Source of the DNA: a virus
IMG/VR virus record: IMGVR_UViG_3300021256_000065
Direction: 5' to 3' (one strand)
Length of the DNA: 37,640 nucleotides
Both the position numbers and the translations under genes were made by a program. Position 1 is the stretch's first letter; each line of letters begins with the position of its first letter. The notes under the pieces were generated by a model that did no database searches, was not told the origin of the DNA, and saw only the letters and a program-made list of their open reading frames with translations. Of the stretch, positions 12,355 to 37,640 are shown one piece after another.

Positions 12355-12654
12355 ATGAAAAGATATTCAACTGTTGAAGCGGCTGTTGAACTTGTAGTTA
12401 AAAATCTTGAAGCAAACCGAAAAGTCTGTGATACTGATTCTATTAGGGCAAAAGTTTACGCTTGGTATGAAAATACTGATGTAACAGACTCTGAAATTCT
12501 TGCGGCGTGTGTTCTTGAAGGAAAAGATTGGTCAGTAAAAACTTCTTATCAGGAGATGCTTGACCTCAAAGAGTGGTGGTTCCCGCACATCTCTTGTAAT
12601 GACATTGCTATCTGGGAAATTGAAGAGGCACAGCGGGATGCCTTTTGGTATTAA
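12355..12654 (+). CDS. hypothetical protein (99 aa)
   Basis: ORF with RBS AAGAGG. Confidence 0.5.
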   Translation: MKRYSTVEAAVELVVKNLEANRKVCDTDSIRAKVYAWYENTDVTDSEILAACVLEGKDWSVKTSYQEMLDLKEWWFPHISCNDIAIWEIEEAQRDAFWY

Positions 12655-12657
12655 AAA

Positions 12658-12873
12658 ATGAATGAAAAACAAATAGTTAATGAAGAAGTAAAAGAACCAA
12701 TGATAAGTATCACGGTTAAACAGTATGCAGAATACATTATGTCTATGCAGAAATTAATTGATATTGCATTAGTGGCAAATCAGACTGCATCAAACGGAGA
12801 TACAGCTGTTAAAATGATACAATCTATTCGTGCGATATGCGCGCAATCATTTAGTAAAGAGGATGATAAATAA
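12658..12873 (+). CDS. hypothetical protein (71 aa)
   Basis: ORF immediately after the upstream stop. Confidence 0.45.
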   Translation: MNEKQIVNEEVKEPMISITVKQYAEYIMSMQKLIDIALVANQTASNGDTAVKMIQSIRAICAQSFSKEDDK

Positions 12874-13551
12874 ATGACAAGAGAAGAGATCATAAGCGGT
12901 TTGCAGATGACAATGGATTTGATACAGTTTGACCCAGGCACAGGTAATGTGCGTCCCATTTATGAACTTAACGACCTCGACAAAACAACTTACGTAGCAT
13001 GTAAGGCAGCAATCAAAGCACTCAAGGCGCAGATGGATAGAGATACCATTAGCAGACAGGATGCGATAGATGCTGTTGAAAAAAGTAGGCGTTTAAATCA
13101 TCACCAAGATGGAAAAGAAGCTTGCGCACATGAATATGAACATAGACATTTCTTGAAAATATTAAGAGATTTACCGCCCGCACAGCCAGAACTGCCAGAA
13201 TCCGAAGAATTGGACTTCGTACAACCTCATAAAAAGATCGGTGTGCAGTTGGAAATTGCACAGCCCGAACAGAAAACAGGGAAGTGGATTTTATGCAGTG
13301 AGAGGCTGCCGGAAAAATGTGGATGGTATATATGTACCTTAAAAGACTATCGTGTAAATGCTTATTATTGGAACAATAAAGGCGAGTGGGTAGATAACGG
13401 TAAAAAACATTTTTTTGAACTGTATAACATTAGTAGTCGATATACTGGAAAAGAGATCACCGCAGAACAAGAAGGGTCGGTATATTGGACAGATTGGGTC
13501 ATCGCATGGATGCCGTTGCCAGAACCATACACAGAAAGGCAGGAGAAATGA
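12874..13551 (+). CDS. DUF551-like phage protein
   Basis: WILCSERLPE...AWMPLPEPY signature. Tandem paralog of the next gene. Confidence 0.5.
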   Translation: MTREEIISGLQMTMDLIQFDPGTGNVRPIYELNDLDKTTYVACKAAIKALKAQMDRDTISRQDAIDAVEKSRRLNHHQDGKEACAHEYEHRHFLKILRDLPPAQPELPESEELDFVQPHKKIGVQLEIAQPEQKTGKWILCSERLPEKCGWYICTLKDYRVNAYYWNNKGEWVDNGKKHFFELYNISSRYTGKEITAEQEGSVYWTDWVIAWMPLPEPYTERQEK

Positions 13552-20202: not shown

Positions 20203-20294
20203 TTATCTGGTTTAAAGAATTTCTTTTTGATTTTTTTAAAAAAATATTATATAATATTTATATGATAAAGATAGAAAAAGAAAGGAAATTGCAT

Positions 20295-21209
20295 ATGACA
20301 GAGATTATGATTGATGCACTTGATCTTGATGAAGATATGGAATTTGATCAAGAGAATGAAACAATTATAGAACAGCCTGATGCGGTTGTTACAAGTCCTG
20401 TAAAAATGTATTTACGAGAAATCGGCAAATATAATCTTCTGTCAAGAGAAGAAGAAATAGAACTAGCGGAAGCCGCCCTTAAAGGCGATAAGGAAGCGAA
20501 AGAAGCCCTTATCAATCACAATTTACGTTTGGTGGTTTCTGTTGCTAAACGCTATATGGGGCGAGGACTTACTCTTCTTGACCTGATTCAGGAAGGAAAT
20601 GTAGGTTTAATTAAGGCAGTTGATAAGTATGATGTGTCTAAGGGTTTTAAATTCTCTACATATGCTACCTATTGGATTAAGCAGGCAATTTCTCGTGCAG
20701 TAATGGATCAGACTAGAAATATTCGTATTCCTGCCCATATCATTGAGATGATGAGTAATATTAAAAAGACTGAACGTGAATTTCAGCAGATTCATGGGCG
20801 TGAGCCTAAAGAAGCTGAAGTTGCGGCTGCTCTTGATATTGAAGTTAAAAAAGTTAAGGAAGTATATGCCTGGATGAAGGATACTACTTCTCTTGATATT
20901 ATAGTCGGCGATGATGAAGATATTACGGTTGGCTCTTTTATTGAAGATGAGTCTGCAGTTCCTGCTTTTGCGGCAATCGAAGAAAATGATCGCACTATCG
21001 CGATTAAAAATATCCTTGATACTTTGAATGATCGTGAAAAAATGGTTATTGTACGGCGGTTTGGTATTGGTCTTGATAGAGCCGAAACTCTTGATGAGAT
21101 TGGTAAGGAACTTGGACTTAGCAGAGAGCGCATTCGTCAGATTGAAGCAGCTGCGCTTAGAAAGTTGCGGAATCCTCGTCGTGCTAATCTGCTTAAAGAA
21201 TTTTTCTAA
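20295..21209 (+). CDS. RNA polymerase sigma-70 family factor (RpoD-like regions 1.2 to 4)
   Basis: YLREIG (1.2). [18 protein letters not shown] and [12 protein letters not shown] (region 2). A region-4 [30 protein letters not shown]. Confidence 0.85.
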
Positions 21210-22521: not shown

Positions 22522-22594
22522 GCGCCATTAGCTCAGATGGAAGAGCACTTGACTTTTAATCAAGAAATCTCGGGTTCGAGTCCCGAATGGCGCA
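22522..22594 (+). tRNA. tRNA-Lys (anticodon TTT)
   Basis: GCGCCAT/ATGGCGC acceptor. Loop CTTTTAA. Confidence 0.8.
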
Positions 22595-22752
22595 TTTAGT
22601 GTGATCTATCCCTCGATACCACTATCCAAAAAGTGTAAAGCGTAATGGTAGGGAGTCGTCAAAACAGGATTTTAATATTTTTCTGAAGGCAGAGACGAAT
22701 TAAATCTAAACAGGCAGAGAAAAATATATCTTTTATAATAATTTAATAAAGG

Positions 22753-22941
22753 ATGGTGAAAATTATGATATATATTGTTCATTATTTTGATGATAAACAT
22801 AAGCAGCACATGACCTTTGTTAAAACTTATAAAGATGTTGAATTTATAAGAGATCGTTTTGGAAATATCACGGTCGAAACATTAAAAGTAAAAGAGTATC
22901 CATACATAGAATATAAAATGGCAATGGCGATTGAGCAATAG
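22753..22941 (+). CDS. small hypothetical protein (62 aa) inside the tRNA array
   Basis: RBS AAAGGATGG before the ATG. Confidence 0.4.
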   Translation: MVKIMIYIVHYFDDKHKQHMTFVKTYKDVEFIRDRFGNITVETLKVKEYPYIEYKMAMAIEQ

Positions 22942-23090
22942 TGTACATAAAACTCAAAGAGTCCACCACACTGCGGCGGTCGGTAGAGAGAGACCATAGC
23001 AGACTACCTTATGGAAGTCATGATCCGTGAATTTAGGCTATATAAACGTCTGGGGAGCCTACGAAATGGACAAAGCCATTTTTAATTTAA

Positions 23091-23174
23091 GGGTCGGTGG
23101 CAACAGCGGCGACTGCACCTGACTGTAAATCAGGCACACCGGAGACACCGAAGGTTCGAGTCCTTCCCGGCCCA
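23091..23174 (+). tRNA. tRNA-Tyr (anticodon GTA), class II
   Basis: Stem CCTGA/TCAGG with loop CTGTAAA. Long variable arm. Confidence 0.7.
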
Positions 23175-23179
23175 CTTAG

Positions 23180-23253
23180 GCGGCAATAGTGGAGTGGTTT
23201 AACACAGCGGTCTCTAAAACCGCGGATCCTGGGTTCGAATCCCAGTTGCCGTA
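23180..23253 (+). tRNA. amber suppressor tRNA (anticodon CTA, reads UAG)
   Basis: Canonical 74-nt cloverleaf. Acceptor GCGGCAA/TTGCCGT with G1-U72. D-loop AGTGGTTTA. Anticodon stem GCGGT/ACCGC with 7-nt loop CTCTAAA, anticodon at 23214-23216. T-arm CTGGG-TTCGAAT-CCCAG. Discriminator A. Confidence 0.85.
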
Positions 23254-23257
23254 TTAT

Positions 23258-23331
23258 CGCGGGGTAGAGCAGTTCGGTAGCTCGTCAGATTCATATTCTG
23301 AAGGTCGTGGGTTCAAATCCCACCCGCCGCA
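23258..23331 (+). tRNA. tRNA-Met or Ile2 (anticodon CAT)
   Basis: Begins CGCGGGG like an initiator tRNA. Loop TTCATAT. The acceptor 3' strand CCGCCGC needs one bulged nucleotide. Confidence 0.6.
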
Positions 23332-23669
23332 ATTCAAAGCACATATATCCGCGCAGATATATGTTTTGTGCTGAGAAGTTTGTTTTCTACTTTTGTTCTT
23401 AAAATCAAAGAGAGTGACTTTAGGTATTCAAGAAGAATATCTCCGTGCTTCTGGAGACAGCGGTCGTCAATGAGTTCATGTCCTTAATGAGCGATTCCCC
23501 TTCGAGGCGCAAAAAAGTAGAGGGGTTACGAGTCTACTAGCTACTATACTCGTGAGTAGCAAATATGCGGGGGCCACGATACCGTGTGGTGTAAAATCGG
23601 TAGCATACTGAATAATCAATTCAGAGATCTAAAGTAGCGTATTAGCACGGTGGGCGTGTAGCCGCATTT

Positions 23670-23740
23670 GCCTCTATCCGCTAATGGTAGGCGAAGTGAC
23701 CTGTAATCACTCAATCCCCGTTCGAATCGGGGTGGAGGCT
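23670..23740 (+). tRNA. tRNA-Thr (anticodon TGT)
   Basis: GCCTCTA/TGGAGGC acceptor. Loop CCTGTAA, with an unusual C33. Confidence 0.6.
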
Positions 23741-23762
23741 TAAAATCACTTACAGCAAAAAT

Positions 23763-23835
23763 TGTTCAGTAGTCAAAAGGTTAAGACATTAATTTTTAAG
23801 ATTAAGTAATGCTGGTTCGATTCCAGCCTGAGTTG
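23763..23835 (+). tRNA. tRNA-like gene with anticodon TTA (ochre-suppressor-like); functionality doubtful
   Basis: Canonical T-arm GCTGG-TTCGATT-CCAGC. Anticodon stem TTAAT/ATTAA with loop TTTTAAG. Acceptor has a 1-72 U-U mismatch. TAA clearly terminates genes in this window. Confidence 0.35.
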
Positions 23836-23849
23836 AGTGATTTGTTTTT

Positions 23850-23932
23850 GCGGGCGTGGCGTAATAGGTAGGCGCTAAGGTCTTAAAAACCTTTGGATCT
23901 AGTCCGTACGGGTTCAAGTCCCGTCGCCCGTA
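23850..23932 (+). tRNA. tRNA-Leu (anticodon TAA), class II
   Basis: Loop CTTAAAA. Long variable arm. GCGGGCG acceptor. Confidence 0.7.
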
Positions 23933-24108
23933 TTAATAATATATTTGGATGGTTTGGAATCCATCGCCGCACTTTATTATTGGTTGAGTATAAGTGCGAC
24001 ATAACCCAACCAAAGGGCAAATATATATTATATATTAAAAGTTTTGCAAAACTTATTAGAATTGCCCAATAGCAAATTATTAATGGAAGATGGGCATTAA
24101 TTACAATT

Positions 24109-24181
24109 TGATAGGTAGCTCAATTGGTAGAGCGGCGGCGCGTTAAGCCGTGTGTTGGAGATTCGAGTTCTCCCCTATCAA
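24109..24181 (+). tRNA. tRNA with GTT-type anticodon loop GCGTTAA (Asn-like, non-canonical C33)
   Basis: TGATAGG/CCTATCA acceptor. D-arm GCTC-AATTGGTA-GAGC. T-arm GGAGA-TTCGAGT-TCTCC. Confidence 0.5.
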
Positions 24182-24187
24182 CTATAT

Positions 24188-24272
24188 GGTGTAGTACCTC
24201 AGTGGGGAGGAGGCGCGGTCCTGAAAACCGTCGCTCCGAGAGGGGCTGAAGGTTCGAATCCTTCCTGCACCG
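24188..24272 (+). tRNA. tRNA-Ser (anticodon TGA), class II
   Basis: Anticodon arm GCGGT-CCTGAAA-ACCGT resembles the bacterial Ser(UGA) arm. Long variable arm. Confidence 0.6.
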
Positions 24273-24277
24273 CTATT

Positions 24278-24365
24278 GGATGGGTGGCAGAGTTGGTTGA
24301 ATGCGGCACCCTGCTAAGGTGTTAGTCACTTCGGTGGCTCGCGAGTTCGAATCTCGCCTCATCCG
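24278..24365 (+). tRNA. tRNA-Ser (anticodon GCT), class II
   Basis: Loop CTGCTAA. Long variable arm. T-arm GCGAG-TTCGAAT-CTCGC. Confidence 0.65.
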
Positions 24366-24402
24366 CATTTATAATAAAATATAATAGAAAAGGAATATTA
24401 AT

Positions 24403-25304: not shown

Positions 25305-25394
25305 CGGAACGTAGCTCAATGGTAGAGCTTTGACGGTAAACAACAAGGGGTTCGTCACCTACTTGTGATGCACGTTCGAATCGTGCCGTTCCAA
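25305..25394 (+). tRNA. tRNA-like gene with C1xA72 mismatch and about 18 extra nt; anticodon unresolved
   Basis: Perfect D-arm GCTC-AATGGTA-GAGC and T-arm GCACG-TTCGAAT-CGTGC. Internal stem ACAAG/CTTGT with a 14-nt loop. Confidence 0.4.
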
Positions 25395-25509
25395 CGGCTG
25401 CCGAGAGCAAACGATCCGCTTGCAGGGAAGTTACCATAGAGTAGAGCTTCAGAAGAGTGCGGGATGAGCGGTTGGTGGAAACCTGAACCACCATTATAGA
25501 ATTTAGCAT

Positions 25510-25674: not shown

Positions 25675-26152
25675 TTGAAAAACTTATATTTTTAAAATAT
25701 TATGGAAACTAAACAACTTGGAAATTTAACTTAGTTACAATGTATTACTCGTTTTTATGAATTAGGATATTCAGTATCAATACCTTATGGAGATAGTGAA
25801 AAATATGATATGATACTTGATATTAATGGAAAATTATATAAACTTCAAGCAAAACATGCTAAAGAATTTTATACAGAAGATAATCAATTATCATATATAA
25901 AGATAAAAACTTCTTGGCAATCTGGATATACTAAACAAAGTCAATATCATACAAATAAGTATTCTAAAAATGAAATTGATTTTTTTGTTACATACTTTCA
26001 AGGTAAAAATTATTTAATTCCAGTAGAAGAATGCTCAACTGAAAAAATATTAAGAATTTTACCTCCAAAAAATGGACAAATAAAAGGAATATCTTTTTTA
26101 GAAAACTATATTGATGAGGAGGTTATTAAAAAATTATAAGTATTATCAGGTA
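25675..26152 (+). mobile_element. intervening sequence in tRNA-Ala carrying a nuclease ORF (intron or homing-element candidate)
   Basis: Lies between the two tRNA halves and contains the ORF 25702/25810-26139. Confidence 0.5.
25702..26139 (+). CDS. PD-(D/E)XK / Hjc-like nuclease (homing-endonuclease candidate); the longer form needs TAG read-through
   Basis: ELGYSVSIPYGDSEKYDMILDINGKLYKLQAK fits an E...D...(D/E)xK nuclease core. The ATG at 25702 is in frame with the 25810 ORF through one TAG. Confidence 0.4.
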
Positions 26153-28199: not shown

Positions 28200-29711
28200 A
28201 TGAATACTTTTCTTAATCAGATGAAGAAAGATAATAATATTGATTATACAGAGAATGGCGGCGTGACCCATAAGTCTACGGAGTCTAAGGTTCTTGACAT
28301 GTTTGCGGTCGGCGGTGCATATAGAAACCGTTCTGATGAAGATGTTATTCTTCTCTTCAAAAACGCATTTGAAGAAGACCGCCTTCTGGCTATGAAATGC
28401 CTGTTTTATCTTCGCGATGTGCGCGGAGGACAGGGAGAAAGACGCTTCTTTAGAGTTGCCTTTCGCTGGCTTTGTGACGAATATCCTGAAGTTGCAAAGA
28501 AGAACCTTGACAATGTTAGTGAGTATGGTCGCTGGGATGATTTGATTTATGTTACGGAAGGTACTAGATGTCAAACCGCCGCATTCAATATCATCAGACA
28601 TCAGCTTGCTCTTGATACTCAGTGCAAAACGCCCTCCCTGCTTGCAAAGTGGCTTCCTTCTCAGAATGCTTCCAATGCAGAGACCAAGAGATTGGGACAT
28701 GTTTTGGCAAATTTCTTAGGGATGACCAGCCGCGAATATCGTAAGACCCTTTCTGTTCTTCGTGAACGCATTAATGTGCTTGAGCGTCTTATGAGCACTG
28801 GTAGATGGGATGAAATCGAATTTGATAAAATTCCTTCTAGAGCAGGTATTATTTATCGTAATGCCTTTGCTCGCCGCGATATTCTTGCCAAAAAGTATGA
28901 AGCTTTTGCCAAGAGTAAAGATACTAAGGTAAATGCAGATGCACTGTATCCGCACGATATTGCTCACAGAGCTTTTGAGATGCGTTATCATACTAACCTT
29001 GAAGATCCCACTCGTCTTATGCTTCAGAAGTATTGGGATAATCTCAAAGACTTCTATAACGGCAGAGAAGAGAATGGTATTGCAGTCGTTGATGTGTCTG
29101 GCTCCATGTCTGGAACTCCAATGGAAGCTGCAGTTTCTATGGGGGCTTACATCGCAGATAAAGCACATGGGCCTTTTGCGAATCACTTTATTACTTTTTC
29201 TTCCTCTCCTGAATTGGTAAGGTTTGAAGGAGTTGATATTGTTGATAAGTTTCGTCGTTGTGTTGGGGCAAACTGGGGTATGAATACCAACTTGCAGGCG
29301 GTATTTGATATGCTTCTGCATACTGCAATGAGAAAGAATGTAAAGGCTGAAGATATGCCGACTCGAATTTACATTTTTTCTGATATGGAGTTTGATCAGT
29401 GTGTGTCTTTTGATTGTACCCCTAAGCTTCACAGATGGGAAGGTTACCGTACTGTCAACTCTGTTGATGAGGTAAATTCCGATCTTGAGAAGATTAAAAA
29501 GGAATGGGCACGGTATGGATACAAAATGCCTCAGGTCATCTTTTGGAATCTCGATGCCCGTCAGAATCATATTCCAGCTATTGGAGAAGGGTTCAGTTAC
29601 GTGAGTGGTTTTTCGCCTTCTATGATTGACTGCATCTTGAGCGGCAAGGATGGCTGGGATTTGATGCTTGAAAAGCTCATGTCCAAACGTTATGCGGCAG
29701 TTGTTGCATAA
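28200..29711 (+). CDS. vWA-domain protein, DUF2828-like (503 aa)
   Basis: MIDAS-like VVDVSGSMSG. N-terminal TENGG...YLRDVRGGQGERRFFR, as in DUF2828. No internal TAG. GC content above that of its neighbours. Confidence 0.5.
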   Translation: MNTFLNQMKKDNNIDYTENGGVTHKSTESKVLDMFAVGGAYRNRSDEDVILLFKNAFEEDRLLAMKCLFYLRDVRGGQGERRFFRVAFRWLCDEYPEVAKKNLDNVSEYGRWDDLIYVTEGTRCQTAAFNIIRHQLALDTQCKTPSLLAKWLPSQNASNAETKRLGHVLANFLGMTSREYRKTLSVLRERINVLERLMSTGRWDEIEFDKIPSRAGIIYRNAFARRDILAKKYEAFAKSKDTKVNADALYPHDIAHRAFEMRYHTNLEDPTRLMLQKYWDNLKDFYNGREENGIAVVDVSGSMSGTPMEAAVSMGAYIADKAHGPFANHFITFSSSPELVRFEGVDIVDKFRRCVGANWGMNTNLQAVFDMLLHTAMRKNVKAEDMPTRIYIFSDMEFDQCVSFDCTPKLHRWEGYRTVNSVDEVNSDLEKIKKEWARYGYKMPQVIFWNLDARQNHIPAIGEGFSYVSGFSPSMIDCILSGKDGWDLMLEKLMSKRYAAVVA

Positions 29712-29981: not shown

Positions 29982-30461
29982 ATGATAGCATTACTTTAGC
30001 ACTATTCTTTATCTGATATATTAATCTTCTTGATTTTTCTTGCTCTAGGTATTAAAAGTTTAATTTCTTTTTTTGACTGGGTTTATGGATATATAAAAAG
30101 AGCTTTTAATATAGAATACTCTAAAAAGAGTGAAAAATAGCAAATTGAGTAGCGGTTACAGCAAGGTAGCGAAACCATAGCAATTTTAACCGCAAATCAA
30201 TAGGCAACTGATAAAGTTCTTTTAGATTTATCCGCAAAAATTGATATGTTAATTGATTCAGATAAAGATGCAATAAAGTCTTATATAACAAAAGAACATC
30301 ATCATTTCTGTTATTAGGTTGGATAGATAGACGACTTTAGTTTGGATTGTCTTGAAAAACGTTATCAACATTATACAGATGAAGGCGGAAATTCATTTAT
30401 TGAACACTTTATGTGTGATTTAAGAGCTTTGCCTAAATAGGGTTCTTTTAATGGCAACTAA
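29982..30461 (+). CDS. small membrane protein (holin-like candidate) with about 7 in-frame TAG
   Basis: RBS AAAAGGAGGG. N-terminal TM ILIFLIFLALGIKSLISFF. Frame closed only by TAA at 30459-30461. Confidence 0.35.
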
Positions 30462-30491
30462 TAACAATGGAGAAAAAAGGAGAATTAAAAA

Positions 30492-32369
30492 ATGGCATTG
30501 ATGTTAAACACTTTATATCCACCTATTATGATGGATGTAATCCCTGGTTTTATAAGAACATCAACATGTAGAATATATTTTTCTATATCCGATTATAATT
30601 CTGCCAAAGACATAGCAAATGTTCAAGTTGCATTAACAAATGTAAAAACTAACACTTCTGCATTGAATACTGATTTGTACCCCGCAGAAATTAAATTAAC
30701 TGAATTACTTTATGATGACCAAAAGTAGGACGATTATTGTTATTATATAACAATAAGTCCTGCTGATTTAGCGGGCGGGGAATTTTTATTAAATCAATAT
30801 TATAAAATTCAATTACGCTTTACATCAAAAGATGCAGATAGTGTTAGTTTAACTGGAGTTCAACAAATTGCTACTTGGTTAAATAATAATCTTATGTTCT
30901 TTTCTTAGTGGTCACGTGCGGGAATCATTAGAGGGATTTCAAGACCAACGCTTTATATTGATTATTTAGATGATGAGGATGAAGAAGAGGAAGAAGAAAG
31001 TGAAAATATTTCATTATCCGCCCCATTATCAAAAATTACTGGTAGATTAACTTTTGCAGATGAAGGCGAATTAGACTATTTAGCTTCTTATAATGTTAAA
31101 GTTTATTTAAGTAAGCAAGATAATAAATTAATTTTTGATAGTGGTATTCAACATCCAATAGAAGAAAATGAGATTGATTGTAACTTATTATGTGATTTAT
31201 AGGATTAGCGGCTGTATATGATAAAAATTAGTTATACTACAAACTATGCTTATAGTAAATAGGAAAACTATATAATACAAGTGCGAGTCGAGAGCCAAGA
31301 CTTAAATCCATTCAATCTAACAATCACTCCAACAAGAAATGAAGAGGATGGTTATATAAATCTTCATATTACGATGGATAAAACTAAAGATTTTTCTGAT
31401 AAACAATTATTAATTAGAAGAATATCTTCAAAAGATAATTTCTTAATATGGGAAAATTTATATGCTATAGATTAGAGCTTTTCCACATTTGATTGGCAAG
31501 ACTTATCTGTAGAAAGCGGGATTTGGTATAAATATGCGTTATATGTAGTAGATTTAAATAAAACTATTTTATATAACCCTATAGAAACAGATCCAATATT
31601 GTGCATTTTTGAAGATATATTTTTAGTAAGTGATAATATTCAATTAAGATTACAATTTAATCCTTCCATAACAAGTTTTAAATATAATACAACTGAATCT
31701 CAACAAGTTACTTTAGGAGGAAAATTTCCTTATATTAGAAGAAATGGAAATAATTATTATAGAACCTTTTCTATTGGCGGTCTTATTAGTTCTTTAATGG
31801 ATGAAACTGATTGGTATGATTCTTATATTCATCCGCCGCATCCAATATAGGGAGAAGAAGAACAGGAAGAAGAAGAAATCACTTTACCACATATCAGATT
31901 TACTTCTAAATAGGATAAATATAAAGATTCTTATGATTTATATCAACAATATGAATCAGATAAAAATATTTCTAATTATCTTAATCCAATATATGAAAGA
32001 TTCTTTAGAGAAACTGTATATGATTTCTTTTATAAAAATAGTGTAAAATTATTTAAATCTCCAACAGAAGGTAATATATTAGTTAAATTAACCAATATTA
32101 ATTTTGAGCCTCAAGCTCAATTAGGACGCGTATTATATTCATTTACCGCAACCACAGTTTAGATAGATGAACCAACTTTTGAAAATTATAAAAAATATAA
32201 AATCTTTCCTGATGATATATTTGAATATGTTACTGAATCTCCTGCTTTAGAGATCGAATTTGGTACAGCCACAATGGTGCTGGTTATAAATGCAAATGGT
32301 GCAAGTCAAAATGGAAATCAGAATTGGGCATTGCATTTAGAGCCTTATCCTATTAAAGGAGGAGGTTAA
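30492..32369 (+). CDS. large virion structural protein (tail or baseplate-like, about 625 aa) with about 9 in-frame TAG
   Basis: RBS AAAAAGGAGAA. The ORF fragments 30492, 31281 and 31599 share one frame and are separated only by TAG. Ends TAA at 32367-32369. Confidence 0.55.
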
Positions 32370-32371
32370 TA

Positions 32372-34396
32372 ATGCAAACATATCCATATTTAAATGATTT
32401 AGCTTTTTTAAGAGAACTTGATCTATCAAAAGTAAAAGAACAATTTGTGAGAATTAACGTTTTGTCTTTTAAAGATGAAAAACCAATAGAACAAATTGAA
32501 GGAGATGTGGTAAGCGGCAATATTACAATAGATGGAAATTCAGCGATGCGGCGAACCGCAAATTTATCTATTGTGGTAAAAAAAGATGAATATTCTAATA
32601 GAGATATTAGAAAAATTTTAACTATAAATAAAAAAGTATAGTTATTAATAGGATTTACTAATACAACTAATAAATATGAACAATATCCAATTTTATGGTT
32701 CCCGCAAGGAATTTATGTAATTATTACTCCTAATATTATTTATAATAATAATGGTATCAATATTTCATTGACATTACATGATAAAATGGCCTTGCTAAAT
32801 GGGGAATGCGGCGGAACTCTACCTGCATCTATTACATTTACTGAAATAGAAGATGTTGATGAGAATGGCGAAAGACAAATTTCTAATCCTACTATATATC
32901 AAATTGTACAAGAATTAGTTAATCATTTTGGCGGATAGCAGCTTGGAAAAATAATTATTGAACTTGATAAAAAAATAAAAAAGGTAATGCGGTGGACAGG
33001 TTCAACGCCGCTTTACCTATATCAAGAAGCACTTCCAGACGGTACAATGTATAGTAGTTTTAGTACAAATGAAAATTAGTTAAGAAGGCAAGGAGAAGGG
33101 ACAATTCAAGAATTTTAGTACGGATAGGATATAGGTTACGTTTTGACTGATTTTATCTATCCACAATAGCTAACTAATAACCCTGGAGAGACCATTGTAA
33201 GTGTCTTAGACAAAATTAAGAATTGGCTTGGAAATTACGAATATTTTTATGATATTAATGGTAATTTCAGATTCCAAGAGATAAAGAATTATTTGAATAA
33301 AACATATGCAACATTTTTAATTAATGAAATAAATTCAAATAATTACTTAACTAATTATGCAAATGGAAAATCTGTTTATACTTTTGAAGATTCTGATATT
33401 ATTCAATCATATTCAAATTCCCCGCAATATCAACAAATAAAAAATGATTTTGTTGTTTGGGGTAAAAGAACTACAACAGAAGGAAAATAGATTCCTATTC
33501 GTTATCATTTAGCTATTGATAAAAAGCCTGCAGTCGGGAATTAGTATAAAGTATTTTTCTATACTGATCCCGATGATAACATTTTAAAAGCTAAAAGACC
33601 TTTAGAATTTGCTACAAGAAATTAGTTTCCAGAAACCGGAGATGTATGTCAATATTATTATGCGGCAGACACTGGTTTTATATATAAATGGGACGCGAGT
33701 GTACAAAATTATGCCACAACCCCATATATAATTGAAACAATAGAAGCAAAAGATTATAGGACTTAGCTCTATATGTCTGGTGTTGCTAGTTAGCCGTTTG
33801 GTTTAGATAGTAATTATTATTACACAGAATTAAAAAATGAATGGCCTAAACTATATGATATGCGGCAAGGAAAATTCTTTGATGAAATACTAGATCAGCC
33901 TAGTAACATGGATTTCTTTTTAGATTTTATAGATACTTCTACCGCTATTTCAGAATTTAGCATAGAAAATATTGGTAGACGTACCCTTACAATATCAAAT
34001 GATGCAATAAATTGTATTTTTTAGCCTGATAACCCTGATATAGTTATTATTGAAGCAAACAGCGAAGGCGCGGATGATCTTCGAGAATAGTGTTAGCATA
34101 GACGACAAGAATATTCTCAAGTAACATCAGACATTTATTCACAGCTAGTTACTGGCGGAGTTTTAAGATCTGCTTATGAAGAAATAAGAACAGAACTCTA
34201 TCAATATACTGATTATAATGAACAAGTTACATTAACTACTTTACCAATTTATTATCTTGAACCTAATGTACGGATAACAATTAAAAATTAGTAGAGCGGA
34301 ATTGATGGAGATTACATGATAAAAACAATTTCATTACCATTAGATGTTAATGGAATGATGAATTTATCTTGTACAAAAGCACTTGAAAGAATTTAA
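32372..34396 (+). CDS. large virion structural protein (about 675 aa) with more than 12 in-frame TAG, including a tandem TAG TAG
   Basis: RBS AAAGGAGGAGG. Fragments 32372 and 33293 are in frame. Ends TAA near 34394. Confidence 0.5.
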
Positions 34397-34399
34397 CAA

Positions 34400-34446
34400 A
34401 AAAAAATAATGGCGATGATATTTTTATATCATCGCCATTTTTTTAT
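34400..34446. terminator. bidirectional rho-independent terminator between convergent genes
   Basis: 13-bp stem AATGGCGATGATA/TATCATCGCCATT with A-run and T-run flanks. Confidence 0.65.
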
Positions 34447-36470
34447 GGTTTTAATCGGATAATATATCCAACTTTATAGTTAGGCCACGAAAGTGGACCA
34501 ATCCATTTTACAAAGTGAGCACCTTCACCTTTTTCTTTGCAGAAGGCATGTCCAGAATCAAATGACAAACCATTACCAAAGTAAATACATGTATGATTGA
34601 TAGTTACAAAAGTAAGAATGTCACCAGGGCAAAGTTTTCCTTCATTCATAAGCTGCTTAGGAGTTTTATTACCTACTTTAATTAAGTCTGCATACTTGCG
34701 GAGATCAGCCTACGCGTGACTATTTAACCAGCGGATGCCGCCTCCTTTTTGCCCATACCAGCTACATGCGGATGCGGGAAGTCCAGACTATTTCATTGCA
34801 AAACCAACGCCGCCCATGCAATTTGTATATAGTTTATTAGCTTTTCTTGTTTTCCAGAATGTACTTTCACTTACATGTCCACTGTTGTAATATCTCCAGT
34901 CCTTACCAGCTTTTATGTCGTCTACTAACCATTGATTTAACCGAGCACATGCCGCAAGTAATTTTTGCACTCTATTTAATTTTGGTTTATATACAACTGT
35001 TTTTGGATTTTTTAAATCATAAACTCTAAATCCCCAATTTTGATTAGCCTTGTTTTTAGCATTACTTAAGTATTGATAAGCACCAAGTTGATATTGAGAT
35101 TCAGACCATCTTCTACGAACAACATATCTATCTATTGGTGTTGCGGCGGGAGTCATTGTTACGGGCGCTTGGACTGGTGCCGCAACCGCTTTCACCTATG
35201 GATAAATTTGATTACCATTCTAATCATATGCTTTTAACCCTTTAGCTTTTGCTCTTGCTATTGCGTTAGCTTTAATTTCATAAGCATTATCCTGATTAAT
35301 ATATTTTCCATTTTTATAGTCTTGTGCAACTCTATACCAGACAGTTTTTGGCTGCGGGACTGGTGCCATCGCCCCCGCTTCTACATCTAATTTTGCTAAA
35401 TTATTTTCTTTTATAATACGAAGTACCTTCTCTTCATAATTAGGATCAGTGCAATATCCCTATGGATTGCTAGCTGTCCCAGTTCCAATTCTAATTGCAT
35501 GAATAACCGCCCCAGGATCTGTCATACCTTTGACGCGATTATATTTATAACCTTTATTATTTTTTACATGTAAAAGAAACATCTAATAATCTTCAATACA
35601 GTTTTTATAGTCTTTATAAACTCTAAAATTATCAGGCTTATGAATTAATTTACCATTAACATATTCAGGAGTTATCTTAGAAAAAACAGTGCCATCCCAA
35701 ACTGTATAATTAGACCAGCTGCCATTGATTAAATCAGCTTTCATTCCAAGAAGATTATTTCGTTTTGTTAATTCAATAGCATCAGATCCCAATCCATAAC
35801 CATTCTAGAGGCAGCACTGTGCGGCGACCACTGATGGTAAAATTTTTGTTTGTTTATAAAGATCTACACAAATTTTAGATACTTTATTAATAAAATCTTC
35901 TTTGCTTTGAGGAATACCAGAAGCTGCGGTTGTTGACGGTGTTGTACCTGCGTTTCCGCCCTTCACCCTCTCAAGAAATTCATTCCAAGTCCAAGATGTT
36001 TTATATTTATTATTATGAACATATGGAGCTGGGCAGACTTTATTTACAATATCATAATGTCTTAATACATGGTCTATTGGGATTTTTAAGTCCTTCATTA
36101 ATTTTTGGACAAGCCATACTGCGGCTTCTTGTGTTTCTTTTGTAAAATACCAATATGGATCACTTGCTAGTCCTTTGTTACCATCACAGTGACAACATAA
36201 TTCAATGCTAATTGTATTAGCATTTCTTGCGTATGGATGCTTTTGAGCATATATGCCAGCAGTACCAACTGCCCACACAATTGCATCATGGGAGCATCTT
36301 TGGAAAATTGTTCCATCCCAATAAATTGTATAGTGGGCACCAGTACCATTTTTTGATAATTCATAATTTTGACCATCTACTCCTAAATAGTGAATGGCTA
36401 TATATTCATGTGTATTTCCAAATTTTGGCACATATACTTCTGAAATTTTATTTACTATTTTATATGCCAT
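34443..36470 (-). CDS. multidomain endolysin: N-acetylmuramoyl-L-alanine amidase (Amidase_2/PGRP), linker, NlpC/P60 or CHAP-like peptidase; 3 in-frame TAG
   Basis: RBS GGAGAAAAAAT before the ATG at 36470. HYLGVDGQ...AHYTIYWDGTIFQ...NANTISIELC are amidase_2 motifs. C-terminal GDILTF...HTCIYFGNG...DSGHA. Four ORF fragments share one frame, split by TAG at 35805, 35583 and 34788. Ends TAA at 34443. Confidence 0.65.
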
Positions 36471-36484
36471 ATTTTTTCTCCAAT

Positions 36485-36504
36485 GGGCGGGGCAAACCCC
36501 GCCT
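36485..36504 (-). other. GC hairpin between esterase and endolysin genes (attenuator or stability element)
   Basis: GGGCGGGG-CAAA-CCCCGCC. No U-run. Confidence 0.3.
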
Positions 36505-36568
36505 AAAAGGACCATCCTGAAGGACGGTCCTGGTTATTAATTGTCTAAATGAATTTTTAAGATATTTA

Positions 36569-37640
36569 TTAATTTGTTTTCGAATAATATAGATTATTGT
36601 ATTTTGGGTCATACATGGTAGGTTCTTTTCCTGTAGTGACATAATAAGCAGCATTAATTCCTGCGTATTCACCCATTTCATTATAGCCAGTTTGATAAAA
36701 ATGAAATAAGTCTTTCATTAGACCCCTACTTTTAAAACTAGCCAATGTCGTTGTAACCATCACAATATCTTTATTTTCTTTAGCAAGTTCTGTTTGTTTT
36801 TCGATTACACGGCTATAATCTGTGCCTGTGCCATTATATTCTCCGATTCTGCAAAGAAAACATTTTTCAACACCAACAGCTTTTAATGCAGTAAACATTG
36901 TTTCAAAACTGGTTATATATGCTTCATCATCAGTAATTGTTGATGTATCTCCTTCGTGCTCACCTTGGCACCAAACTAAAAAGATATGTCGAATTGTATA
37001 CCCTCTCGATACAGCAAAATTTTTAGCAGAATTAAGTCTGCTAATAGCATCGTTTAAATATGGTGTATTCGGTTGCCATTCATTAATTCCAGAACCGCCT
37101 TTTGAAGCAGATACGGCAAGTACAGGAATATTACCATTGTTAGAATAATAAGCATTAACAAAGGCTGTGACCATCGAACCAGTTTTTAAATTACCATCAT
37201 CTATTCCATTACTGTTATTTTCTTTTACCCCAAAAGGTTCAATAATGGTGTCCATATATAAAGGGGCAGATATTGCTTTATATTCAAGTCCTGCATTAGG
37301 TAAAATAACGGGTGCGCTATCAGGCCATTGCTAATTTGTTATACCTCGTCCTGCCATATTTGATTGACCTGCAAACAAACATAAGTCAAAAACATTTGTT
37401 AATTTTATATTCGATATATCGCTGGTCAATGCTGCGCTGTGTTCACTTGGGTCGATGTTACTATTGTTGGTTTTTCTAATTTGAAAATAAAATGCGGTAC
37501 CCTTCTTAATATATACATCCGAAACCCAACCCTCAATACTAATTAAATCGGTTTTAGCAACTGGTGCTTCCGTGGAGGTAACTTTCATAACCGATAACTC
37601 ATATCCACTGTTAGCAGATAGATGCAAATCATAATCAACA
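36569..37640 (-). CDS. SGNH/SASA-family carbohydrate esterase (sialate-O-acetylesterase-like) with N-terminal beta-rich domain; at least 1 in-frame TAG; 5' end beyond the window
   Basis: GQSNMAGRG motif, then TAG at 37331-37333, then the in-frame continuation QWPDSAPV...LVWCQGEHEGD. TAA at 36569-36571. The frame stays open to the window edge. Confidence 0.55.

What the first reader, a model, noticed from the sequence alone, without database searches (positions are those of the whole stretch)
23763..23835. Possible second suppressor-like tRNA (anticodon TTA) that conflicts with TAA being a working stop
A good T-arm, D-arm and 5-bp anticodon stem with a 7-nt loop TTTTAAG put TTA at positions 34-36, which would read UAA (and UAG by wobble). 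Yet every recoded late gene, and most early ones, terminate at TAA. Either this tRNA is inactive (its acceptor has a U1-U72 mismatch and the whole molecule is A/T-rich), or it is tightly restricted, or my fold is wrong. Predicted Sup-TTA tRNAs recur in phage arrays and their role is unsettled.
Basis: seen in the sequence. Interest (0 to 1): 0.5.

Follow-up and report, generated by a model that had tools for sequence, protein, structure and literature searches.

The report
Weak TAA-reading tRNA in recoded phage
A real but unusually feeble tRNA gene with a stop-codon-reading anticodon (UUA) sits in a phage tRNA cluster; the phage still ends its genes at TAA, and following the tRNA up showed that this phage reads the other stop codon, TAG, as glutamate rather than the glutamine that databases assume.

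Summary
G18G19 and the T-loop are intact, and U1·U72 is the only non-canonical pair.

TAA is a working stop. About 39 of 57 ORFs end in TAA. No in-frame TAA lies inside protein homology, against 33 in-frame TAG. Orthologues end at the same residue.

The tRNA is an outlier among 949 phage tRNAs: 33% GC, no G-C pair in the anticodon stem, G38 instead of A38, and a cloverleaf that is not the minimum-energy fold. It occurs in only two near-identical genomes, whereas the CUA suppressor is conserved with covariation. Its scaffold is Glu/Gln-like.

Unexpectedly, TAG here aligns with glutamate, including the catalytic Glu of the GH73 endolysin. Public databases translate these codons as Q.

Best reading (confidence 0.42): a weak second reader of UAR codons that helps TAG decoding by wobble and reads TAA only marginally. 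An inert relic is the main rival.

The parts
23763..23835 (+). tRNA gene with anticodon UUA (Sup-TTA). Acceptor UGUUCAG/CUGAGUU with U1.U72, G2.U71 and U3.G70; discriminator G73; no encoded CCA.
   Evidence: Rfam RF00005 51.3 bits, full length; ARAGORN tRNA-Stop(tta) at 23762-23836
23796..23798 (+). Anticodon TTA (positions 34-36) inside the loop TTTTAAG (23794-23800). U32 and G38 are an unusual loop context.
   Evidence: cmscan alignment. G38 occurs in 13 of 949 tRNAs; A37-G38 after A36 occurs in 2 of 277
23180..23253 (+). Dedicated amber suppressor tRNA (anticodon CUA, loop CUCUAAA), conserved in related phages.
   Evidence: Rfam 68.3 bits. In 11 family members the loop is invariant and 14 of 20 pairs show compensatory changes
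22522..24366 (+). Co-oriented tRNA block Lys-Tyr-Sup(CUA)-Met-Thr-Sup(UUA)-Leu(UAA)-Asn-Ser-Ser. Spacers beside Sup-TTA are 22 nt and 14 nt. It is probably one transcript.
   Evidence: No + strand promoter-like site between 22461 and 24035, and no + strand terminator-like site until 24577; these are consensus scans only
29982..34396 (+). Three late (tail/baseplate-like) genes with 7, 9 and 16 in-frame TAG. All end in TAA, two of them in TAATAA (30459-30464 and 32367-32372).
34443..36470 (-). Endolysin (Amidase_2 + GH73 glucosaminidase) with 7 in-frame TAG. The TAG at 35805-35807 occupies the catalytic Glu position (AAQCCL-TAG-NGYG against FlgJ AQAALETGWG).
   Evidence: Pfam; PDB alignment to 3vwo/2zyc
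25732..25734 (+). In-frame TAG in a PD-(D/E)XK endonuclease gene (25702-26139) at a position that is Glu in 16 of 18 homologues.

Best explanation
23763-23835 is a genuine tRNA gene of the Glu/Gln ('Glx') tRNA family that carries the ochre anticodon UUA. It sits inside a phage tRNA operon. The phage has reassigned TAG, not TAA, in its late genes, and reassigned it to glutamate. It has a dedicated, conserved CUA suppressor for that codon. TAA remains the main terminator. I think the UUA tRNA is a low-efficiency second reader of the UAR codon pair. Its U34 would pair with the G of UAG by wobble, as classical ochre suppressors do, and so add capacity for the roughly 40 TAG codons of the late genes. 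It would read UAA only marginally, for four reasons: UAA is recognised by both release factors; the tRNA is thermodynamically feeble; its anticodon loop lacks the A37-A38 context of efficient suppressors; and many genes in this window have a second stop directly behind TAA. SHOWN: the gene and its anticodon register; TAA is a stop; TAG is Glu; the outlier features; the narrow distribution. INFERRED: expression, charging with Glu, wobble reading of UAG, and low efficiency at UAA.
For: The tRNA is real and keeps every tertiary-interaction nucleotide.

All three variable stems differ from every candidate parent yet remain paired. The D arm GUCAAAAGGUUAAGAC is identical to that of a canonical tRNA-Glu(UUC) in L130. 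The T arm, acceptor and G73 resemble tRNA-Gln(UUG) of relatives L003 and L044, at 68-70% identity outside the anticodon arm.

TAG means Glu. 18 of 31 TAG columns have a Glu majority. A log-likelihood score gives E +16.3 against Q -19.2. In 120 database homologues, 10 of 16 columns have a Glu majority, up to 116/120. TAG occupies the catalytic Glu of GH73.

TAA is a stop. Inside true-frame homology there are 33 TAG, 0 TAA and 0 TGA. Orthologues of 32372-34396 end at the same residue.

A back-up stop follows TAA in 7 of 24 genes here against 82 of 964 in relatives (p=0.004; p=0.012 after dropping one doubtful ORF). TAATAA after gene 29982-30461 occurs in both Sup-TTA genomes but in only 1 of 10 other relatives.

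That ochre suppressors read UAA and UAG, and that RF1 and RF2 both read UAA, is established knowledge (Eggertsson & Soll 1988; the RF specificities are also stated in 10.1101/2021.08.26.457843).
Against: There is no evidence of expression or aminoacylation.

The cloverleaf (-8.3 kcal/mol) loses to an alternative hairpin (-15.0). The D and anticodon stems have under 1% probability in the predicted ensemble.

The U1.U72 mismatch may weaken synthetase and EF-Tu binding.

An ad hoc isotype classifier is undecided: Arg 15.1, Glu 13.1, Gln 12.0 bits.

The gene occurs only in this phage and a 96-98% identical one, with identical flanks, so nothing can be said about selection.

The probable homologue in L137/L140/L141/L145 has a 6-nt loop UUUUAA, which argues against strict selection for decoding.

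The conserved CUA suppressor should be enough for TAG on its own.

The tandem-stop enrichment rests on a crude gene call and few genes.
Confidence: 0.42

Rival explanations
1. Inert or nearly inert relic. It is a duplicated Glx tRNA whose anticodon mutated (UUG or UUC to UUA by one substitution) and which has drifted to A/T. It is tolerated because it is barely charged or barely decodes, and it has no selected function.
For: Extreme outlier: 11th-lowest GC of 949 tRNAs; anticodon stem with no G-C pair (7 of 949); G38 (13 of 949). The cloverleaf is not the minimum-energy fold. 1:72 is mismatched. It is present in one lineage only, while about 78 related loci lack it. Sup-TTA genes appear sporadically and independently, in L047 and L144. 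The L140-type homologue has a defective 6-nt loop. Suppressor tRNAs that look unused are reported in zeta crAss-like phages (PMC12386605).
Against: All conserved tertiary nucleotides and all stems are intact, apart from one mismatch and two wobbles. Random decay of a 73-nt gene that has diverged this far from any parent should have broken some of them. It still scores 51 bits, within the range of its neighbours (42-79). It is packed tightly in an operon.
Confidence: 0.27
2. Deliberate TAA read-through. The tRNA decodes TAA at particular sites or times. It could make C-terminally extended or fused phage proteins. Alternatively it could disturb termination of host genes as a take-over device, with phage genes shielded by tandem stops.
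For: Back-up stops after TAA are enriched. Several adjacent genes are in the same frame and separated only by one TAA: 12355-12654 / 12658-12873 / 12874-13551, and two tail-fibre-like ORFs in L004. UAA is the cognate codon of a UUA anticodon.
Against: No homology continues across any TAA; the one apparent case at 26137 is a 4-residue over-extension of the alignment. Same-frame neighbours are expected by chance one time in three. The poor loop context and stability argue against an efficient suppressor. Only 37.6 kb plus about 10 kb of a ~134 kb genome was examined.
Confidence: 0.15
3. A non-translational tRNA-like RNA. It could be a decoy for a host anticodon nuclease (its loop hexamer UUUUAA equals the tRNA-Lys loop shifted by one position), or a ligand of the phage Ro/TROVE-like protein encoded 4.4 kb downstream.
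For: The UUUUAA hexamer is kept in the window tRNA and in the L140-type homologue, although their stems differ and the loop lengths differ (7 and 6 nt). A Ro-like gene lies at 28200-29711 (phrog_850, E=4e-121). There is a weak YrlA-like hit at 23783-23904 (17.7 bits).
Against: The YrlA hit is far below the gathering score of 69 and is explained by general tRNA-likeness. There is no evidence for any nuclease or for Ro binding. Homology between the window tRNA and the L140-type gene is only probable (62% identity outside the anticodon arm, different array position).
Confidence: 0.1
4. Not a tRNA, or a different anticodon register.
For: The minimum-energy fold of the bare sequence is not a cloverleaf.
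Against: Two independent tRNA finders agree on the gene and the anticodon. The alignment has high posterior probability at every position of the anticodon arm.
Confidence: 0.02

Closest known systems
Classical bacterial ochre suppressor tRNAs (E. coli supB = tRNA-Gln UUA, supG/supL = tRNA-Lys UUA, supC = tRNA-Tyr UUA)
   Same: A sense tRNA one substitution away from anticodon UUA. Such tRNAs read UAA and, by wobble, UAG. They are tolerated as weak suppressors although UAA is the main stop (own knowledge; Eggertsson & Soll 1988).
   Different: Those are laboratory or spontaneous mutants of otherwise normal, G+C-rich tRNAs. This one is a stand-alone phage gene with remodelled A/U-rich stems, a 1:72 mismatch and G38. 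Its activity is untested.
Predicted tRNA-Sup-TTA genes in phage genomes (e.g. Klebsiella jumbo phage phiKp24, PMC8386662; the TAA-suppressor column in Fig. 2C of Borges et al., 10.1101/2021.08.26.457843)
   Same: A tRNA-finder call of a UUA anticodon in a phage that ends its genes at TAA, with no known role. I found two more such calls: L047:1109-1181 in a standard-code relative, and L144:8189-8262.
   Different: No sequence homology to those. This one sits in a TAG-recoded genome next to a CUA suppressor and has a Glu/Gln-type scaffold.
Phage stop-codon recoding, genetic code 15 (TAG to Gln) with Sup-CTA tRNA, in crAss-like, Lak and phAss-1 phages (10.1101/2021.08.26.457843; PMC9523058; PMC10607447)
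   Same: In-frame TAG is concentrated in late structural and lysis genes. Early genes use the standard code. A phage-encoded CUA suppressor is present. TAA is the preferred stop. The genome is low in G+C.
   Different: Here TAG aligns with Glu, not Gln. There is also an extra UUA tRNA. I found no paper reporting TAG to Glu in phages.
Peritrich ciliate nuclear code (NCBI table 30: TAA and TAG to Glu)
   Same: UAR codons are read as glutamate by tRNA-Glu-like suppressors with UUA and CUA anticodons (own knowledge).
   Different: In peritrichs TAA is a sense codon and TGA is the only stop. Here TAA is demonstrably a stop, and only TAG is a sense codon.

Membership tests
Canonical elongator tRNA (Rfam RF00005) | Covariance-model score above the curated threshold over the full model | tested here: met
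   51.3 bits against 29; model positions 1-71 of 71
Canonical elongator tRNA (Rfam RF00005) | 7-nt anticodon loop with U33 and a purine at 37; G18G19; T54-Psi55-C56; A58 | tested here: met
   Loop UUUUAAG, D loop AAAGGUUA, T loop UUCGAUU
Canonical elongator tRNA (Rfam RF00005) | Watson-Crick or G.U pair at 1:72 (elongators) and a stable cloverleaf | tested here: not met
   U1.U72 is flagged non-canonical. Cloverleaf -8.3 against MFE -15.0 kcal/mol; the D and anticodon stems have under 1% ensemble probability
Functional ochre suppressor tRNA | Anticodon UUA | tested here: met
Functional ochre suppressor tRNA | Efficient 'extended anticodon' context (A37 A38; MiaA motif A36A37A38) | tested here: not met
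   G38. Among 277 tRNAs with A36, 230 have A37-A38 and only 2 have A37-G38. The Sup-CTA loop is CUCUAAA
Functional ochre suppressor tRNA | Aminoacylation and measurable UAA/UAG read-through | not testable with these tools
   Needs tRNA-seq, acid gels or reporter assays
Code-change suppressor tRNA of a recoded phage (like Sup-CTA in code-15 phages) | Its cognate stop codon occurs in frame at sense positions of phage genes | tested here: not met
   0 in-frame TAA against 33 in-frame TAG inside true-frame homology. The apparent case at 26137 is an alignment over-extension. Only the window and part of a sister genome were examined
Code-change suppressor tRNA of a recoded phage (like Sup-CTA in code-15 phages) | Conserved among related recoded phages, with covariation | tested here: not met
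   Found only in the window and in IMGVR_UViG_3300021399_000007. Sup-CTA, by contrast, has 23 distinct sequences; among 11 of them aligned, 14 of 20 pairs show compensatory changes
tRNA-Glu / tRNA-Gln isoacceptor family | Scaffold resembling tRNA-Glu (U11:A24, extra D-loop base) or tRNA-Gln (U1, G73) | tested here: inconclusive
   D arm identical to L130 tRNA-Glu. Acceptor, T arm and G73 are closest to L003/L044 tRNA-Gln, 68-70% against 64% identity. The HMM classifier is undecided
Genetic code 15 (TAG = Gln) | In-frame TAG aligns with Gln in homologues | tested here: not met
   Glu majority in 18 of 31 columns against Gln in 2. TAG occupies the catalytic Glu of GH73. Database 'Q' residues at these columns are TAG codons translated by convention

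The most novel reading that the evidence does not exclude
This Bacillota-type phage lineage runs a peritrich-like UAR-to-glutamate system built from Glx-type tRNAs. TAG is fully reassigned to Glu through a conserved CUA suppressor. The UUA tRNA is an active partner that reads TAG and, at a controlled low level or at a specific time, TAA, with tandem stops guarding phage genes. The choice of Glu rather than Gln would follow from the host's indirect Gln-tRNA pathway. A suppressor glutamylated by a non-discriminating GluRS, but lacking the U1-A72 pair and carrying the enlarged D loop that GatCAB rejects, stays Glu-tRNA. That would be the first phage stop-to-Glu code and the first functional TAA-reading phage tRNA.
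Probability: 0.15. Interest if true: 0.85.

Novelty: new variant of a known kind. Interest (0 to 1): 0.58.

Why it matters
Taken alone, the UUA tRNA is one more unexplained 'Sup-TTA' call. I show that it is a real gene, that it does not abolish TAA termination, and that by several measurable criteria it should be a poor decoder. That is a useful caution against reading such calls as evidence of TAA recoding.

The larger point came from following it up. In this phage clade, in-frame TAG sits at conserved, even catalytic, glutamate positions. Public protein databases have translated those codons as glutamine under code 15. If TAG is Glu, hundreds of deposited phage proteins carry wrong residues, including active-site residues.

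Phage stop-codon recoding would then not be limited to Gln and Trp. The host's aminoacylation pathway (GlnRS versus GluRS plus GatCAB) becomes a testable determinant of which amino acid a hijacked stop codon acquires.

Tried and rejected
1. Exact and degenerate DNA patterns for the tRNA in IMG/VR found only the sister contig.
2. A loop-plus-T-arm pattern returned 44 loci, but ARAGORN showed that all except the sister contig were other tRNAs, mostly tRNA-Lys(UUU) matched one base out of register. I dropped it as a census of Sup-TTA.
3. The genome-contig scan gave only partial tRNA-Glu-like fragments in rabbit-gut Clostridia MAGs and unrelated hits, with no host clue.
4. My first search for in-frame stops used all ORFs of the relatives and produced about 99 'TAA' hits. 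These were antisense shadow alignments: TAA opposite Leu TTA, aligned with Q, K or E. Restricting the queries to a greedy non-overlapping gene set removed them. The same artefact made standard-code L047 look TAA-recoded until its intact standard-code ORFs were listed.
5. Nearest-neighbour and per-isotype HMM classification of both suppressors was inconclusive, with 79% hold-out accuracy and top scores within 3 bits for Sup-TTA. I therefore do not claim a definite Glu identity from sequence.
6. Codon-usage depletion of GAG in late genes was uninformative, because all G-ending codons are depleted there.
7. The identity of the tRNA between the window and L004 says nothing about selection, because the flanks are identical too.
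8. The YrlA and HCV_SL1412 hits near the tRNA are sub-threshold chance or tRNA-likeness.
9. A pair-count on a mixed X/Glu alignment was abandoned because MAFFT mis-registered the acceptor strands.
10. Walking into the sister genome added about 10 kb and showed no gene split by TAA.

Full report
THE OBSERVATION

ARAGORN finds 17 tRNA genes in the window, all on the + strand. They include tRNA-Stop(tta) at 23762-23836 and a CUA suppressor at 23180-23253.

Rfam's tRNA model matches 23763-23835 over its whole length at 51.3 bits (gathering score 29). This is rank 13 of 16 hits, which range from 42 to 79 bits.

The covariance alignment gives these parts:
- acceptor UGUUCAG/CUGAGUU
- D arm GUCA-AAAGGUUA-AGAC
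- anticodon stem UUAAU/AUUAA
- loop UUUUAAG
- variable loop GUAAU
- T arm GCUGG-UUCGAUU-CCAGC
- discriminator G

The anticodon is therefore U34 U35 A36 at 23796-23798, preceded by U33 and followed by A37. Only 1:72 (U.U) is flagged non-canonical. G18G19, U54-U55-C56, A58, U8, A14, A21 and an A15:U48 pair are present (sequence).

CONTEXT

The window is phage DNA. It encodes:
- a sigma factor at 20262-21209
- a Ro/TROVE-like DUF2828 protein at 28200-29711
- tail/baseplate-like genes at 29982-34396
- an Amidase_2 + GH73 endolysin at 34443-36470 (-)
- a SASA-type esterase

With TAG read through, the late genes become long ORFs carrying 7, 9, 16, 7 and 1 in-frame TAG. Early genes have none.

GenBank phages hold no close relative. 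IMG/VR holds 178 loci with the Ro-like gene. One of them, IMGVR_UViG_3300021399_000007 (133,873 bp; loci L004, L081, L159), is 93-98% identical to the window in the aligned blocks.

The nearest cultured carriers of the Ro-like protein are Bacillus siphophages at about 40% identity. A Bacillota host is therefore likely; this is an inference.

IS TAA A STOP?

In a crude gene call, 39 ORFs end in TAA and 18 in TGA.

I aligned a non-overlapping gene set from about 80 related loci to the window. In that comparison, 33 TAG codons lie inside homology with at least 3 supporting homologues. Only two TAA do, and both are antisense shadows inside the sigma and Ro genes. The one apparent read-through, at 26137, is a four-residue over-extension at a C-terminus.

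Orthologues of 32372-34396 end at exactly residue 674, in TAA or TGA, in 9 of 11 relatives outside the sister genome, and one codon later in a tenth.

TAA is a genuine terminator here. The literature held reports no TAA recoding in phages (PMC13037316).

HOW GOOD A tRNA IS IT?

It is the outlier of its array. GC is 0.34 against 0.48-0.63 for the others. MFE is -15 against -21 to -34 kcal/mol. It is one of only two tRNAs in the array (the other is tRNA-Val) whose minimum-energy fold is clearly not a cloverleaf.

The cloverleaf costs 6.7 kcal/mol more than an alternative long hairpin. The D and anticodon stems have under 1% probability in the predicted ensemble.

Among 949 distinct tRNAs in all sequences fetched:
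- it has the 11th-lowest GC
- it is one of 7 whose anticodon stem has no G-C pair
- it is one of 13 with G38
- of 277 tRNAs with A36, 230 have A37-A38 and only 2 have A37-G38

From established knowledge (Yarus's extended anticodon; the MiaA A36-A37-A38 motif), this predicts poor decoding. The conserved Sup-CTA, in contrast, has the ideal loop CUCUAAA.

DISTRIBUTION

The gene is identical in the sister contig, but its flanks are identical too, so this says nothing about selection. It is absent from the other roughly 78 Ro-gene loci and from IMG/VR under three pattern searches.

A metagenome scan for a Glu-type D arm followed by UUA found a probable homologue in related phages L137, L140, L141 and L145:
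- It has the same D arm apart from one base, and the same T stem.
- It has 30% GC and scores 46.3 bits.
- It lies immediately upstream of tRNA-Glu(UUC) and tRNA-Glu(CUC).
- It has a 6-nt loop UUUUAA.

The same scan found a well-formed Glu-like Sup-TTA in an unrelated contig, L144.

Relative L047 uses the standard code, with TAA, TAG and TGA all as stops. It nevertheless carries an unrelated Sup-TTA with an ideal loop CUUUAAA.

Sup-TTA genes therefore arise sporadically and are not conserved. The Sup-CTA family is different: it has 23 distinct sequences, and in 11 of them aligned the loop is invariant and 14 of 20 pairs show compensatory change.

WHAT KIND OF tRNA IS IT?

The D arm GUCAAAAGGUUAAGAC, with U11:A24 and an extra D-loop base, is identical to that of a canonical Firmicutes-type tRNA-Glu(UUC) in L130.

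The T stem, five of seven bases of the 3' acceptor strand, and G73 match tRNA-Gln(UUG) of L003 and L044. Most of the acceptor differences between them are changes to A or T.

Outside the anticodon arm it is 68-70% identical to those Gln tRNAs and 64% identical to the Glu tRNA. An ad hoc isotype classifier is undecided for it, but puts the other two Sup-TTA genes in Glu.

I call it a Glx-family scaffold. One substitution at position 36 converts either UUC or UUG into UUA.

THE UNEXPECTED RESULT: TAG IS GLU

At TAG positions of window genes, related loci have Glu far more often than Gln: 125 cells against 24.
- 18 of 31 columns have a Glu majority, and 2 have a Gln majority.
- A Codetta-like log-likelihood score gives E +16.3 and Q -19.2.
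- The TAG at 25732 is Glu in 16 of 18 homologues of a PD-(D/E)XK nuclease.
- The TAG at 35805-35807 aligns with the catalytic Glu of GH73 enzymes: FlgJ AQAALETGWG in 3vwo and 2zyc. Entry 3k3t carries Ala at that position.

Among 120 database homologues of 32372-34396, Glu is the majority in 10 of 16 TAG columns, reaching 116, 115 and 113 of 120.

The 'Q' residues in those columns are artefacts of convention:
- P0001 has Q at all 16 TAG positions.
- In L161 and L162, every residue that departs from table 11 is TAG printed as Q (8 and 12 codons).
- Those positions are again mostly Glu in other homologues.

I found no paper describing TAG to Glu in phages. Borges et al. state that only TAG to Gln and TGA to Trp were observed.

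MECHANISM

The most economical reading is that the UUA tRNA belongs to the same Glx-derived suppressor set as the CUA tRNA. It would act as a weak second reader of UAR codons, helping with the 40 TAG codons of the late genes (GAA 121, GAG 16, TAG 40) by U.G wobble. It would read UAA only marginally because RF1 and RF2 both compete there and the tRNA itself is poor.

A back-up stop directly after TAA is more frequent here than in relatives: 7 of 24 against 82 of 964, p=0.004, or p=0.012 without one doubtful ORF. TAATAA after gene 29982-30461 is shared by the two Sup-TTA genomes but occurs in only 1 of 10 other relatives. This is suggestive, not decisive.

No promoter-like or terminator-like site on the + strand separates the tRNA from its neighbours, so co-transcription is likely.

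Expression, charging and decoding are all inferred.

The main rival is an inert relic. Its strongest support is the set of outlier features, the sporadic distribution, and the 6-nt loop of the probable homologue.

WHY GLU RATHER THAN GLN (HYPOTHESIS FROM ESTABLISHED PATHWAY KNOWLEDGE, NOT TESTED)

In bacteria without GlnRS, a non-discriminating GluRS glutamylates tRNA-Gln. GatCAB then amidates it, recognising the U1-A72 pair and rejecting the enlarged D loop of tRNA-Glu.

Both suppressors here lack U1-A72. Position 1:72 is U.U in Sup-TTA, and G.U, C-G or G-C in the Sup-CTA family. Both have enlarged D loops. They would therefore stay charged with Glu.

VERDICT

The tRNA is real. The conflict with TAA is resolved in favour of TAA remaining a stop, with a weak or idle tRNA. 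The surrounding recoding system is a new variant, TAG to Glu, that deserves direct testing.

Noticed in passing
window 25732-25734, 35805-35807 and the other roughly 38 in-frame TAG of 29982-37588; also L161:10001-12037 and L162:10001-12028: In-frame TAG aligns with glutamate, not glutamine, including the catalytic Glu of the GH73 endolysin. Public protein databases print Q at these codons (code-15 convention). I found no report of TAG to Glu in phages.
   Followed up: yes
window 25305-25395 (+), with 28200-29711 (+): An odd tRNA-like element (ARAGORN 'tRNA-???' with a 2-nt anticodon; Rfam tRNA 42.1 bits; 90 nt) lies 2.8 kb upstream of a Ro/TROVE-like DUF2828 gene. It could be a Y-RNA-like partner of that protein. 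A sub-threshold YrlA hit (30.5 bits, cut-off 69) overlaps tRNA-Asn in L081:3264-3375.
   Followed up: no
L004:5716-6504 against window 23699-23705 (tRNA-Thr 23670-23740): In the sister genome the tRNA-Thr(UGU) gene is interrupted within its anticodon loop by about 790 nt that are absent from the window. Only its 3' half aligns. This could be an intron or a mobile insertion.
   Followed up: partly
L047:1109-1181: A relative that uses the standard code (TAA, TAG and TGA all serve as stops) carries an unrelated Sup-TTA tRNA with an ideal suppressor loop CUUUAAA. It too is confined to one lineage.
   Followed up: partly
L140:328-398 (-), L141:8638-8710, L137:2841-2911, L145:11156-11228 (-): A 30%-GC tRNA-like gene with the same D arm and T stem as the window Sup-TTA, but with a 6-nt anticodon loop UUUUAA. 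It lies immediately upstream of tRNA-Glu(UUC) and tRNA-Glu(CUC) in related phage arrays.
   Followed up: partly
L011-L020 and L125-L135 (e.g. L011:874-947, L125:7966-8017, L131:1493-1545): Other A/T-rich tRNAs share the 21-nt D-arm block TAGTCAAAAGGTTAAGACAT but carry unusual anticodon arms: 'Cys' ACA, 'Gly' UCC, and an 8-nt loop. Their acceptor ends are frayed. This looks like a family with swapped anticodon arms.
   Followed up: no
L012:4387-4460, L013:902-975, L014:3502-3575 and others: A conserved tRNA with an 8-nt anticodon loop GUUAAAAG and an encoded CCA follows tRNA-Met in a standard-code subclade. It resembles a frameshift suppressor.
   Followed up: no
L007:5694-5769, L010:398-473, L025:127-202, L028:3653-3728, L140:615-688 (-): 'tRNA-Leu(CAA)' genes of 74-77 nt lack the long variable arm that bacterial tRNA-Leu normally has.
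   Followed up: no
window 12355-13551; L004:19856-21271 (-): Consecutive genes lie in the same reading frame, separated only by a single TAA (three genes in the window, two tail-fibre-like ORFs in the sister genome). TAA read-through would fuse them. This could be chance.
   Followed up: partly
window 23743-23750 and 23836-23843: An 8-nt inverted repeat (AAATCACT / AGTGATTT) brackets the Sup-TTA gene asymmetrically. Its significance is unknown and it may be chance.
   Followed up: no
L162:3863-6058: In one relative the Ro-like DUF2828 gene is split by a NUMOD3 (homing-endonuclease-type) ORF.
   Followed up: no
window 23850-23932 against L004:6648-6733: The tRNA-Leu(UAA) next to Sup-TTA differs at about 20 positions between the two otherwise near-identical genomes, with compensatory changes in its stems. 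Everything around it is identical. This suggests a local replacement by recombination.
   Followed up: no
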